From: Escherichia coli
GTDB lineage: Bacteria > Pseudomonadota > Gammaproteobacteria > Enterobacterales > Enterobacteriaceae
Direction: 5' to 3' (one strand)
DNA: 64,000 nt
NCBI RefSeq assembly: GCF_024502345.1
Contig: NZ_JALDNN010000001.1
The position numbers were made by a program. Positions 18,501-21,500 of this stretch are shown piece after piece. Position 1 is the first letter of the stretch. Each line of letters starts with the position of its first letter.

Positions 18501-21500
18501 ACAACCAGACTAAAGTGATTTATGAACGATAACGTTTTGCTCATAGGAGCTTCCGGATTCGTAGGAACCCGACTACTTGAAACGGCAATTGCTGACTTTA
18601 ATATCAAGAACCTGGACAAACAGCAGAGCCACTTTTATCCAGAAATCACACAGATTGGTGATGTTCGTGATCAACAGGCACTCGACCAGGCGTTAGCCGG
18701 TTTTGACACTGTTGTACTACTGGCAGCGGAACACCGCGATGACGTCAGCCCTACTTCTCTCTATTATGATGTCAACGTTCAGGGTACCCGCAATGTGCTG
18801 GCGGCCATGGAAAAAAATGGCGTTAAAAATATCATCTTTACCAGTTCCGTTGCTGTTTATGGTTTGAACAAACACAACCCTGACGAAAACCATCCACACG
18901 ATCCTTTCAACCACTACGGCAAAAGTAAGTGGCAGGCAGAGGAAGTGCTGCGTGAATGGTATAACAAAGCACCAACAGAACGTTCATTAACCATCATCCG
19001 TCCTACCGTTATCTTCGGTGAACGGAACCGCGGTAACGTCTATAACTTGCTGAAACAGATCGCTGGCGGCAAGTTTATGATGGTGGGCGCAGGGACTAAC
19101 TATAAGTCCATGGCTTATGTTGGAAACATTGTTGAGTTTATCAAGTACAAACTGAAGAATGTTGCCGCAGGTTATGAGGTTTATAACTACGTTGATAAGC
19201 CAGACCTGAACATGAACCAGTTGGTTGCTGAAGTTGAACAAAGCCTGAACAAAAAGATCCCTTCTATGCACTTGCCTTACCCACTAGGAATGCTGGGTGG
19301 ATATTGCTTTGATATCCTGAGCAAAATTACGGGCAAAAAATACGCTGTCAGCTCTGTGCGCGTGAAAAAATTTTGCGCAACAACACAGTTTGACGCAACG
19401 AAAGTGCATTCTTCAGGTTTTGTGGCACCGTATACGCTGTCGCAAGGTCTGGATCGAACTCTGCAGTATGAATTCGTCCATGCCAAAAAAGACGACATAA
19501 CGTTTGTTTCTGAGTAATGCAGACGAGTCAGAGAAAAAAGGACCAGGTTGGACTACGATTATTCGGAAAGAGGTACTGATTAAATTATCAGTATGTGGAA
19601 TTCCGAGTAATCCGAGTAACCCAGATGCTGATGGTGTGTAGTGTTATCGTAAGGTTTAATCAAAGTTATGCGGAACTAAGCTTTGGTATATAGCCATACC
19701 GTTTGGCTAACCTATGGCAATAATTTACGCACTATCAGCCACTTAGAGGTAGGAAAATAATGACGAATTTAAAAGCAGTTATACCGGTAGCGGGTCTTGG
19801 GATGCATATGTTGCCTGCCACTAAGGCGATACCCAAAGAGATGCTACCGATCGTCGACAAGCCAATGATTCAGTACATTGTTGACGAGATTGTGGCTGCA
19901 GGGATCAAAGAAATCCTCCTGGTAACTCACGCGTCCAAGAACGCAGTCGAAAACCACTTCGACACCTCCTATGAATTAGAATCTCTCCTTGAACAGCGCG
20001 TGAAGCGTCAACTACTGGCGGAAGTGCAATCTATCTGTCCACCGGGAGTGACCATTATGAACGTGCGTCAGGGCGAACCTTTAGGTTTAGGCCACTCCAT
20101 TTTGTGTGCGCGACCTGCCATTGGTGACAACCCATTTGTCGTGGTACTGCCAGACGTAGTGATCGACGACGCCAGCGCCGACCCGCTGCGTTACAACCTT
20201 GCCGCTATGATTGCGCGCTTCAATGAAACGGGACGCAGCCAGGTGCTGGCAAAACGTATGCCGGGTGATCTCTCTGAATACTCCGTCATTCAGACCAAAG
20301 AACTGCTGGATCGCGAAGGTAAAGTCAGCCGCATTGTTGAATTCATCGAAAAACCGGATCAGCCACAAACGCTGGACTCAGACATCATGGCCGTTGGTCG
20401 CTATGTGCTTTCTGCCGATATTTGGCCGGAACTTGAACGCACTCAACCTGGTGCATGGGGGCGTATTCAGCTAACTGATGCCATTGCCGAACTGGCAAGA
20501 AAACAGTCCGTTGATGCAATGCTGATGACTGGTGACAGCTACGACTGCGGTAAAAAAATGGGGTATATGCAGGCGTTTGTGAAGTATGGACTACGCAACC
20601 TGAAAGAAGGGGCGAAGTTCCGTAAAGGTATTGACAAGCTGTTAAGCGAATAATGAAAATCTGACCGAATGTAACGGTTGATAAGACAAATTATAACGGC
20701 AGTGAAGATTCCTGTGGGGAGTAATTTGTTGCGATTACCACTGTCGTTATTCAACTATAAGCATAAAAAAGTTAAATATAATTTGGGGATTTTAAGTATA
20801 TGGAAACGCCTTTGTCTACTGAATAAGTAAAGTATTAACTGTAAGAAAAGCGTGAATGGTGTTCCCTACATAATTTAAAGATATTCAGTCTACTGGTAGC
20901 TGTTAAGCCAGGGGCGGTAGCGTGGATAATTTTGAAAAAAAAGATTAGAGCATAAAATGAATTTACTTAAAGGGACAATAATATATACATTGTCAAATTT
21001 GACAATTAAATTTGGTGCAGTTTTACTGCTTCCTATATTAACTCATTTACTTAATCCAGAAGAGTATGGGATGGTAGGATTGTATGTTACACTTACTTCC
21101 TTTCTTACAATAATTTTAGGGCTTGGTTTTTATACACCCTTAATGAAAACTCAGTCGGAGCAGAAAAGCAATATTGCAACTTCAAACCATGTAAATTTTT
21201 GTGCGATAATATTTCTTATCGCAGTTTATTTATTATTGCTTTTATTTCTTTACTTTATATTGAAGTCGTCTTTAGTTATTGATTTGTTGGGGGAGGTGAA
21301 ACTAGATAGCAAATTAATTTATTTGGCAGTTATTGTATCAATGTTTTCTGCAATTAATATTATTATGAACACGTCGTTTAGAATGGACGAGAATTATATA
21401 TTAGTTGCAATATTGTCAATTTTATCTTTTGTGTTATTTTATTCCTCTGCTATAATATTCATTAAACTGTTCAATTATGGAGGCCTTGGCTATATATATG

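What the first reader, a model, noticed from the sequence alone, without database searches (positions are those of the whole stretch)
18522..19517. Epimerase gene inserted between wcaM and galF, implying a GalNAc-initiated O-unit
A 331 aa SDR-type epimerase sits between the colanic acid cluster and galF. In the reference K-12 arrangement as I recall it, galF follows wcaM directly. In serogroups that carry a gene here it has been described as an epimerase converting GlcNAc-P-P-Und to GalNAc-P-P-Und (Gnu, earlier gne). Together with the separate GalE-type gene at 28319-29332, the strain may have two 4-epimerases for one O-antigen. GC content here (about 42 percent) is intermediate between core and O-cluster.
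Basis: partly seen in the sequence, partly recalled or inferred. Interest (0 to 1): 0.4.

Follow-up and report, generated by a model that had tools for sequence, protein, structure and literature searches.

The report
Known gnu epimerase gene, E. coli O112ab
The gene between wcaM and galF is the already well-described gnu gene, whose enzyme turns the lipid-linked starter sugar GlcNAc into GalNAc for O-antigen synthesis; here it sits in an E. coli O112ab strain and encodes exactly the same protein as in E. coli O157:H7, so the finding is correct but ordinary.

Summary
A 996-bp ATG-started ORF (18522-19517, +, 331 aa) lies between wcaM (16970-18364) and galF (19760-20653). Its protein is 331/331 identical to the O157:H7 enzyme (Sakai ECs_2847; RefSeq WP_000999466.1). 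Rush et al. 2010, as summarised in Cunneen et al. [quoted passage not shown] All four published gnu and gnu-galF PCR primers match the window perfectly. RefSeq already names the gene accordingly, and about 24% of complete E. coli genomes (1323 of 5426) carry it.

The downstream O-antigen cluster is serogroup O112ab, the L-iduronic-acid O antigen. All 10 O112ab genomes in the collection carry gnu, and four gnu alleles differ only by synonymous changes. The second epimerase (28322-29332) belongs to the GalE clade and has Ser at the GalE Tyr299 gatekeeper position, so it is probably Gne, the UDP-GlcNAc 4-epimerase. A gnu plus gne pair is a known pattern (O86, O125).

Three details need correcting:
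- The gene is part of a 1364-bp segment that replaces 142 bp of unrelated K-12 sequence, so it is not a clean insertion.
- The GC of the CDS is 45.1%, not 42%.
- "GalNAc-initiated" is the standard inference. It is probable but not proven, and I could not retrieve the O112ab sugar sequence.

Verdict: already known, low interest.

The parts
18522..19517 (+). gnu CDS (331 aa): N-acetyl-alpha-D-glucosaminyl-diphospho-undecaprenol 4-epimerase
   Evidence: The ORF is and its translation. It is 331/331 identical to O157:H7 Sakai ECs_2847 and to strain F7386 WP_000999466.1, with 7 nucleotide differences, all synonymous. It matches PF01370. The published gnu primers match at 18650-18667 and 19296-19313.
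18379..19742 (.). gnu-specific segment (1364 bp) absent from K-12, where 142 bp of unrelated sequence lies instead
   Evidence: blastn of K-12 wcaM-galF against the window. Homology of 95% ends 14 nt after the wcaM stop (window 18378) and resumes 17 nt before the galF ATG (window 19743).
18389..18416 (+). sigma-70 promoter-like site upstream of gnu (TGGATA-16-TATAAT); a candidate only
   Evidence: The consensus scan scores it 10 of 12. It lies inside the gnu-specific segment. No terminator-like site was found between wcaM, gnu and galF. This is weak evidence.
16970..18364 (+). wcaM, last gene of the colanic acid cluster (left flank)
   Evidence: NCBIfam equivalog NF007517, 1027 bits.
19760..20653 (+). 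galF (right flank)
   Evidence: NCBIfam TIGR01105, 682 bits. The published gnu-galF primer pair matches at 19453-19474 and 19857-19878.
20886..20924 (+). JUMPstart/ops element that marks the start of the RfaH-dependent O-antigen operon; gnu and galF lie upstream of it
   Evidence: Rfam RF01707, 53.2 bits against a gathering score of 35. The ops octamer GGCGGTAG is at 20913-20920.
20957..28309 (+). O112ab O-unit genes: wzx, wzy, GT2, GT4, glucuronyl C5-epimerase-family gene, a 291-293 aa unknown and GT2. There is no initiating-transferase gene, so the unit is WecA-initiated.
   Evidence: The cluster is 100% identical to the O112ab:H8 genome, with annotation and family matches.
28322..29332 (+). 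GalE-clade 4-epimerase, probable Gne (UDP-GlcNAc/UDP-GalNAc 4-epimerase), last gene of the O112ab cluster
   Evidence: TIGR01179 galE, 428 bits against a cut-off of 262. It is 51% identical to K-12 GalE, with Ser at the position of GalE Tyr299. It is only 29% identical to Gnu, over 197 aa. It is listed as 'EcO112ab ACD37092.1, selected gne/galE' in Table S1 of PMC3682973.

Best explanation
The ORF is gnu. It encodes an NAD-dependent extended-SDR 4-epimerase that acts on the lipid-linked intermediate rather than on a nucleotide sugar.

Proposed pathway in this O112ab strain:
1. WecA, encoded elsewhere in the genome, makes Und-PP-GlcNAc.
2. Gnu inverts C4 to give Und-PP-GalNAc. The presumed route is the GalE-type one: transient oxidation to a 4-keto intermediate by tightly bound NAD+, with Tyr132 as base and Lys136 and Ser109 assisting, then re-reduction from the other face.
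3. The cluster's glycosyltransferases extend this primer. For internal GalNAc residues they use UDP-GalNAc supplied by the separate GalE-clade enzyme Gne (28322-29332).
4. The finished unit is flipped by Wzx and polymerised by Wzy.

gnu lies outside the JUMPstart/RfaH-controlled operon, in a presence/absence segment between wcaM and galF that about a quarter of sequenced E. coli carry.

Shown here: gene identity, catalytic motifs, locus, linkage to O112ab and purifying selection. Taken from the literature for the identical protein: substrate specificity. [quoted passage not shown]
For: - Identity: 331/331 to O157:H7 Sakai ECs_2847 and to F7386 WP_000999466.1. RefSeq gives it the product name of the Und-PP-GlcNAc 4-epimerase, as do the cluster-member names.
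- Function of the identical protein: PMC3682973 reports that Rush et al. 2010 found the O157 enzyme inactive on UDP-GlcNAc and active on Und-PP-GlcNAc. It also reports that clade D genes at this same locus fit the GalNAc-first expectation in 104 of 115 serogroups.
- Published assay: all four PCR primers match with 0 mismatches in the expected geometry.
- Catalytic residues: the Rossmann motif GASGFVG and Ser109/Tyr132/Lys136 align with GalE Ser124/Tyr149/Lys153.
- Pathway context: the O112ab cluster has no initiating-transferase gene, so WecA's product is the available substrate.
- Linkage: 10 of 10 O112ab genomes have gnu-galF-wzx contiguous.
- Selection: four gnu alleles differ by up to 13 substitutions, none of them nonsynonymous.
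- Partner enzyme: the second epimerase is GalE clade with a small gatekeeper residue, which matches the known gnu plus gne pairing.
Against: - No experiment here shows activity in this strain.
- I could not retrieve the O112ab repeat-unit sugar sequence (Perepelov 2008 is not held). PMC10920833 lists the O112ab polymerisation linkage, and hence the first sugar, as not unambiguously determined.
- Cunneen et al. warn that the galF-linked gnu can segregate independently of the O-antigen cluster and was present when not predicted in some serogroups.
- The 10-of-10 linkage is confounded by physical proximity (about 1.4 kb from the cluster) and by shared descent.
- No solved structure exists for the family (best PDB match E = 2e-17 to generic SDRs), so the lipid-substrate binding mode is unknown.
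Confidence: 0.9

Rival explanations
1. gnu is functional but is a hitch-hiker here. The O112ab unit would start with GlcNAc, and gnu would be kept only because it is tightly linked to galF and the O-antigen locus. All GalNAc would come from UDP-GalNAc made by Gne.
For: Cunneen et al. state that the gnu-means-GalNAc-first rule is not absolute and report 10 cases of a gene present when not predicted. The O112ab first sugar is listed as undetermined. The cluster has its own Gne. Three O-antigen-deleted derivatives still keep an intact gnu, so gnu persists without an O unit to serve, at least in the short term.
Against: An active Gnu would convert the WecA product whether or not it was 'needed'. 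A GlcNAc-initiated pathway would then be starved or mis-primed, which makes neutral carriage unlikely. That argument is an inference. Gnu is present in 10 of 10 O112ab genomes across at least three flanking haplotypes, with the protein strictly conserved and 0 nonsynonymous changes among up to 13 substitutions.
Confidence: 0.12
2. It is a nucleotide-sugar epimerase, as in the original annotation ('gne', UDP-GlcNAc or UDP-galactose 4-epimerase). On this reading it would be redundant with the cluster's GalE-like gene.
For: The older annotation still stands in NC_002695.2 ('gne, UDP-galactose 4-epimerase'). There is weak GalE similarity over the N-terminal and catalytic region (TIGR01179, 71 bits; PDB GalE hits around 1e-11).
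Against: The GalE model score is far below its cut-off (71 against 262 bits), and the alignments cover only about residues 5-170, not the C-terminal substrate domain. It is 29% identical to the cluster's true GalE-clade protein. The identical O157 protein showed no activity on UDP-GlcNAc according to Rush et al. 2010, as reported in PMC3682973. The strongest family similarities are to SDRs that act on lipidic substrates: HpnA, 3-beta-HSD/NSDHL and OleD.
Confidence: 0.03
3. It is the last gene of the colanic acid (wca) operon.
For: It is on the same strand as wcaM, 157 bp downstream, and the simple scan finds no terminator-like site between them.
Against: K-12 and about 76% of complete genomes have wcaM directly followed by galF. 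The gene lies in a segment with different composition and its own promoter-like site. Its presence tracks O-antigen chemistry in the literature, not colanic acid.
Confidence: 0.01

Closest known systems
Gnu of E. coli O157:H7 (Z3206 / ECs_2847; clade D of Cunneen et al. 2013)
   Same: The protein sequence is identical (331/331). The locus is the same (wcaM-gnu-galF), with the same spacing to galF (242 bp). The published primers match.
   Different: There are only 7 synonymous nucleotide differences. The downstream O-antigen cluster is O112ab instead of O157, and here gnu is accompanied by a cluster-borne Gne, which O157 lacks.
E. coli O86 gne1 (gnu) plus gne2 (gne) pair; also O125 and Y. pseudotuberculosis O6/O7
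   Same: There are two 4-epimerases for one O antigen. One is a clade D Gnu upstream of galF that makes the first GalNAc on the lipid. The other is a clade A Gne that supplies UDP-GalNAc for later residues.
   Different: In O86 gne2 is the first gene after galF, whereas in O112ab the Gne gene is the last gene before gnd. The O112ab first sugar has not been established experimentally.
GalE, UDP-glucose 4-epimerase (E. coli K-12 b0759; PDB 1XEL and others)
   Same: It shares the extended-SDR fold family, the GxxGxxG NAD site and the Ser/Tyr/Lys catalytic triad. The presumed 4-keto mechanism is the same.
   Different: Similarity is only remote (71 bits against the galE model). The C-terminal substrate-binding region is not alignable. 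The substrate is an undecaprenyl-diphosphate-linked sugar, not a UDP-sugar.

Membership tests
Gnu (clade D Und-PP-GlcNAc 4-epimerase, Cunneen et al. 2013) | Sequence groups with the biochemically characterised O157 enzyme | tested here: met
   The protein is 331/331 identical to O157:H7 Sakai ECs_2847 and to F7386 WP_000999466.1.
Gnu (clade D Und-PP-GlcNAc 4-epimerase, Cunneen et al. 2013) | [quoted passage not shown] | tested here: met
   The order is wcaM (to 18364), gnu (18522-19517), galF (from 19760), with JUMPstart at 20886-20924.
Gnu (clade D Und-PP-GlcNAc 4-epimerase, Cunneen et al. 2013) | Positive in the published gnu-gnu and gnu-galF PCR assays | tested here: met
   In silico, all four primers match with 0 mismatches in the correct orientation. 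The amplicons are 18650-19313 and 19453-19878 (primers from PMC3682973).
Gnu (clade D Und-PP-GlcNAc 4-epimerase, Cunneen et al. 2013) | PF01370 NAD-dependent epimerase/dehydratase with an NAD motif and the Ser/Tyr/Lys triad | tested here: met
   PF01370 E = 8.5e-31. The motifs are G9xxG12xxG15, S109, Y132 and K136.
Gnu (clade D Und-PP-GlcNAc 4-epimerase, Cunneen et al. 2013) | Epimerises Und-PP-GlcNAc and is inactive on UDP-GlcNAc | not testable with these tools
   This is reported for the identical O157 protein by Rush et al. 2010, as summarised in PMC3682973. The original paper is not held.
Gnu (clade D Und-PP-GlcNAc 4-epimerase, Cunneen et al. 2013) | The associated O unit has GalNAc as its first (reducing-end) sugar and no initiating-transferase gene in the cluster | tested here: inconclusive
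   No initiating-transferase gene is in the cluster, and gnu is present in 10 of 10 O112ab genomes. However, the O112ab structure could not be retrieved, and the first sugar is listed as undetermined.
GalE/Gne (clade A UDP-hexose 4-epimerases), tested for the ORF at 18522-19517 | Full-length match to the galE equivalog model above its cut-off | tested here: not met
   TIGR01179 scores 71.4 bits against a cut-off of 262.3, covering residues 5-170 only. The ORF is 29% identical to the cluster's GalE-clade protein.
GalE/Gne (clade A), tested for the second gene at 28322-29332 | Match to the galE model above its cut-off, and for Gne a small residue at the GalE Tyr299 gatekeeper position | tested here: met
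   TIGR01179 scores 427.6 bits against 262.3. Ser aligns with GalE Tyr299. The role of active-site size is described in PMC3682973. Activity was not tested.
   TIGR01214 scores 37.4 bits against a cut-off of 224.
   K-12 has wcaM and galF adjacent with a 174-bp spacer. Only 1323 of 5426 genomes carry the gene.

The most novel reading that the evidence does not exclude
The O112ab / Shigella boydii 15 biological repeat unit is listed as having an undetermined polymerisation linkage. The strict co-occurrence of an intact, selectively constrained gnu with every O112ab cluster would fix GalNAc as the initiating sugar. That in turn would define the Wzy linkage and the order of glycosyltransferase action in the only E. 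coli O antigen containing L-iduronic acid. This refines existing knowledge and does not describe a new kind of system.
Probability: 0.7. Interest if true: 0.15.

Novelty: already known. Interest (0 to 1): 0.08.

Why it matters
The finding matters little beyond correct annotation. It confirms that the window comes from an E. coli O112ab-type strain and that its O-antigen pathway follows the established WecA, then Gnu, then glycosyltransferase scheme, with Gne supplying UDP-GalNAc. One practical point is that gnu is still annotated as 'gne / UDP-galactose 4-epimerase' in some reference records such as Sakai, so the distinction remains useful when predicting the first sugar and the Wzy linkage from genome data. 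For O112ab specifically, the presence of gnu gives a testable prediction, GalNAc first, for a repeat unit whose starting residue the reviews leave open. The structural basis for recognising a polyprenyl-diphosphate sugar instead of a UDP-sugar remains unsolved, because no PDB relative is closer than a generic SDR.

Tried and rejected
- O112ab sugar sequence. I tried to obtain it to test 'GalNAc at the reducing end' directly. Perepelov 2008 and Liu 2008 are not held. The structure tables of Liu 2019 are not in the held text and no supplements are held. Cunneen's Table S2 does not list O112ab. Raedts 2011 shows the structure only as a figure. Further text searches found nothing.
- Rush et al. 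2010 (PMC2804325) is not held, so the biochemistry is cited through Cunneen et al. 2013.
- A mobile-element origin for the 'insertion' was rejected. There are no repeats or IS at the junctions, only a replacement of 142 bp by 1364 bp. A separate strain has an IS1 deletion of gnu.
- The second ops octamer, at 7841, lies inside wcaI and is within chance expectation.
- Comparing the O112ab GT2 enzymes with the O157 first-step GT2 gave a clear homolog (39% identity). That GT family includes members acting on either GlcNAc-PP or GalNAc-PP lipid (my recollection, not tested), so it does not decide the first sugar.
- I did not run structure prediction or large homology searches, because 100% identity to the characterised protein made them unnecessary.
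Full report
**Observation.** The window holds an ATG-started ORF at 18522-19517 on the + strand, 331 codons plus stop. The gene upstream (16970-18364) is WcaM: NCBIfam equivalog NF007517 scores 1027 bits against a cut-off of 808. The gene downstream (19760-20653) is GalF: TIGR01105 scores 682 bits against 659. [quoted passage not shown] It carries GASGFVG at residues 9-15, SS at 108-109 and YGKSK at 132-136. No NCBIfam equivalog reaches its cut-off. The best matches are HpnA, LegB, OleD-type reductases and then GalE, at 71 bits against a 262-bit cut-off.

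**Identity.** A megablast of 18365-19759 against 5,426 complete E. coli genomes finds the segment in 1,323 of them, nearly always once and on the chromosome. It is annotated 'N-acetyl-alpha-D-glucosaminyl-diphospho-ditrans,octacis-undecaprenol 4-epimerase'. The collection is rich in O157:H7 genomes, so 24% overstates the frequency across lineages. The protein is 331/331 identical to O157:H7 strain F7386 WP_000999466.1, and the 7 nucleotide differences are all third-position synonymous. It is also 331/331 identical to O157:H7 Sakai ECs_2847, which that older record still calls 'gne, UDP-galactose 4-epimerase'. The exact sequence sits in a 90%-identity cluster of 2,299 members that carry the same name and include Citrobacter and Shigella entries. 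Cunneen et al. 2013 (PMC3682973) designed two PCR assays on the O157 gene. All four primers match the window with no mismatch and in the right geometry, giving amplicons at 18650-19313 and 19453-19878.

**What the literature says about this protein.** According to PMC3682973, Rush et al. 2010 showed that the O157 epimerase has no activity on UDP-GlcNAc and instead converts Und-PP-GlcNAc, the WecA product, to Und-PP-GalNAc. [quoted passage not shown] Across 115 serogroups, gnu presence or absence fitted the structural expectation in 104. The 2019 review of E. coli O antigens (PMC7685785) repeats this and uses gnu 'just upstream of galF' to deduce GalNAc as the first sugar.

**Which strain and O antigen.** The genes from 20957 to 29332 are 100% identical to the O-antigen cluster of O112ab:H8 and other O112ab genomes. 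The window is collinear, coordinate for coordinate, with NZ_CP062910.1. The cluster holds wzx, wzy, a GT2, a GT4 (its best match is the GalNAc transferase PglJ, 1.4e-34), a D-glucuronyl C5-epimerase-family gene (PF06662, 9e-36), a protein of about 291-293 aa with no family match, a second GT2, and a GalE-clade epimerase. After these come gnd, ugd and wzzB. There is no initiating-transferase gene, so the unit must start from WecA's Und-PP-GlcNAc, which is the Gnu substrate. O112ab is the only E. coli O antigen with L-iduronic acid, and its pentasaccharide unit is identical to that of Shigella boydii 15 (PMC7685785, PMC3068255).

**The second epimerase.** The product of 28322-29332 passes the galE equivalog model (428 bits against 262) and is 51% identical to K-12 GalE. 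Ser occupies the position of GalE Tyr299. PMC3682973 recounts that active-site size at this position decides whether UDP-GlcNAc is accepted, citing the Y299C work. A small residue therefore fits Gne function; this is an inference. The protein is only 29% identical to Gnu, over 197 residues, which matches the clade A versus clade D split. Gnu plus Gne for one O antigen is documented for O86, O125 and Y. pseudotuberculosis O6/O7. The 'two 4-epimerases' remark is therefore right, and the pattern is already documented.

**Anatomy of the presence/absence polymorphism.** K-12 and the window are 95% identical through the end of wcaM and for 14 nt beyond its stop (to window 18378). They are 94% identical again from 17 nt before the galF ATG (window 19743). 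Between those points the window has 1364 bp and K-12 has 142 bp of unrelated sequence. This is a replacement without repeats or mobile-element ends, so 'inserted' is not demonstrated and the direction of change is unknown. In one genome (G6/7) an IS1A has removed gnu and the 3' end of wcaM. The GC of the gnu CDS is 45.1% (GC3 48.5%) and the spacers are 37-40%. By comparison, wcaL is 53.6%, galF 50.4% and the O-unit genes 26-34%.

**Expression context.** Rfam finds the JUMPstart element at 20886-20924 (53 bits), with its ops octamer at 20913-20920, in the galF-wzx spacer. gnu and galF are therefore upstream of the RfaH-dependent O-antigen operon. A promoter-like site (TGGATA-16-TATAAT) lies at 18389-18416 inside the gnu-specific segment, and no terminator-like hairpin separates wcaM, gnu and galF. 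These are consensus matches only.

**Is gnu needed in O112ab?** All 10 genomes that carry the O112ab cluster have gnu-galF-wzx contiguous. These include NCTC9112, SCU-104 and SC492, whose flanking wcaM, galF and wzx proteins differ from the window's. Across four gnu alleles (window, O157, NCTC9112/SCU-104, SC492) there are up to 13 pairwise substitutions and none is nonsynonymous. The neighbouring galF shows 31-39 synonymous and 1-3 nonsynonymous differences against the window. That indicates strong purifying selection on Gnu. However, physical linkage and shared descent weaken the 10-of-10 argument. [quoted passage not shown] PMC10920833 lists O112ab among the serogroups whose polymerase linkage, and hence first sugar, was not unambiguously determined. 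I could not retrieve the sugar sequence of the O112ab unit from the held literature. 'GalNAc-initiated' therefore remains the probable inference, which I put at about 0.7-0.8, and it was not tested here.

**Mechanism.**
- Shown by sequence: a Rossmann NAD site, and Ser109/Tyr132/Lys136 aligned through the cluster's Gne to GalE Ser124/Tyr149/Lys153.
- From established knowledge of GalE-type SDR epimerases: hydride abstraction from C4 by bound NAD+, a 4-keto intermediate, and return of the hydride to the opposite face.
- Inferred for Gnu: the same chemistry on a lipid-linked sugar.

There is no predicted transmembrane segment (the maximum 19-residue hydropathy is 1.45, at the N-terminal Rossmann strand). 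The enzyme is therefore presumably peripheral at the cytoplasmic face of the membrane, where Und-PP-GlcNAc is made. Its nearest families outside Gnu act on lipidic substrates (HpnA, 3-beta-HSD/NSDHL, OleD). No solved structure is closer than E = 2e-17.

**Rivals.**
- Hitch-hiker gnu, with a GlcNAc-first unit: about 0.12 as a sub-question about need, not identity.
- Nucleotide-sugar epimerase, as in the old annotation: about 0.03. It is contradicted by the reported biochemistry of the identical protein and by the failed GalE membership test.
- Colanic acid operon member: about 0.01. It is contradicted by K-12 and by three quarters of genomes.

**Verdict.** The gene is gnu, it is identical in protein sequence to the characterised O157 enzyme, and the gnu plus gne pair is a known arrangement. 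Novelty: already known. Interest: low.

Noticed in passing
window 25714-26685: A D-glucuronyl C5-epimerase-family gene (PF06662, E = 9e-36) lies inside the O-antigen cluster. It is the likely source of the L-iduronic acid unique to O112ab and S. boydii 15, and was already noted by Raedts et al. 2011. Its substrate level (nucleotide sugar, lipid-linked oligosaccharide or polymer) is not established in what I read.
   Followed up: partly
L006 (NZ_CP142915.1) 13382-16169; also strains 162.2 and OY757949: Three genomes keep identical gnu and galF, but galF is followed directly by a truncated GT2 (594 bp) plus galE. The genes from wzx through the unknown ORF are missing. These look like deletion derivatives of the O112ab cluster and are presumably O-antigen-negative.
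   Followed up: partly
L001 (strain S43) 16593-22791; L009 (SCU-104) 2778-4370: Strain S43 has a rearranged O112ab cluster with partial wzx, wzy and C5-epimerase pseudogenes. SCU-104 has wzx and wzy annotated as frameshifted. These could be real O-antigen loss or assembly errors.
   Followed up: no
L003 (strain G6/7) 1349-3235: An IS1A element replaces gnu and the 3' end of wcaM. The sequence immediately after the gnu stop codon (window 19522-19757) is retained upstream of galF. This looks like an IS-mediated loss of gnu.
   Followed up: partly
window 18522-19517 versus 19760-20653: Between the window and O157:H7, gnu differs at 0.7% of sites (7/996, all synonymous), whereas the adjacent galF differs at 4.7% (42/894). 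The two neighbours therefore have different recombination or age histories. No nonsynonymous change occurs among four gnu alleles.
   Followed up: partly
window 27569-28309: This 246-aa GT2 is a full-length homolog (39% identity, E = 2e-59) of the first GT2 of the O157 cluster, which by position is wbdN and is recalled to act on GalNAc-PP-Und. It is a candidate for the second step of O112ab unit assembly. It is also the GT retained, in truncated form, in the deletion derivatives.
   Followed up: partly
window 26682-27563: A 291-293 aa ORF inside the O-antigen cluster has no Pfam or NCBIfam match and is annotated as hypothetical. A pentasaccharide unit needs four transferases after WecA, but only three recognisable GTs are present, so this ORF may be the fourth.
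   Followed up: no
   Followed up: yes
window 48108-50000 and beyond: A tyrosine recombinase, an HTH regulator and an Eag-family gene lie next to sbcB, which suggests a prophage or integrated element starting here. The yefM-yoeB toxin-antitoxin pair is at 40972-41474.
   Followed up: no
L011 (NC_002695.2) 28866-29861: The O157:H7 Sakai reference record still labels the identical protein 'gne, UDP-galactose 4-epimerase'. This outdated annotation could mislead similarity-based transfers.
   Followed up: yes
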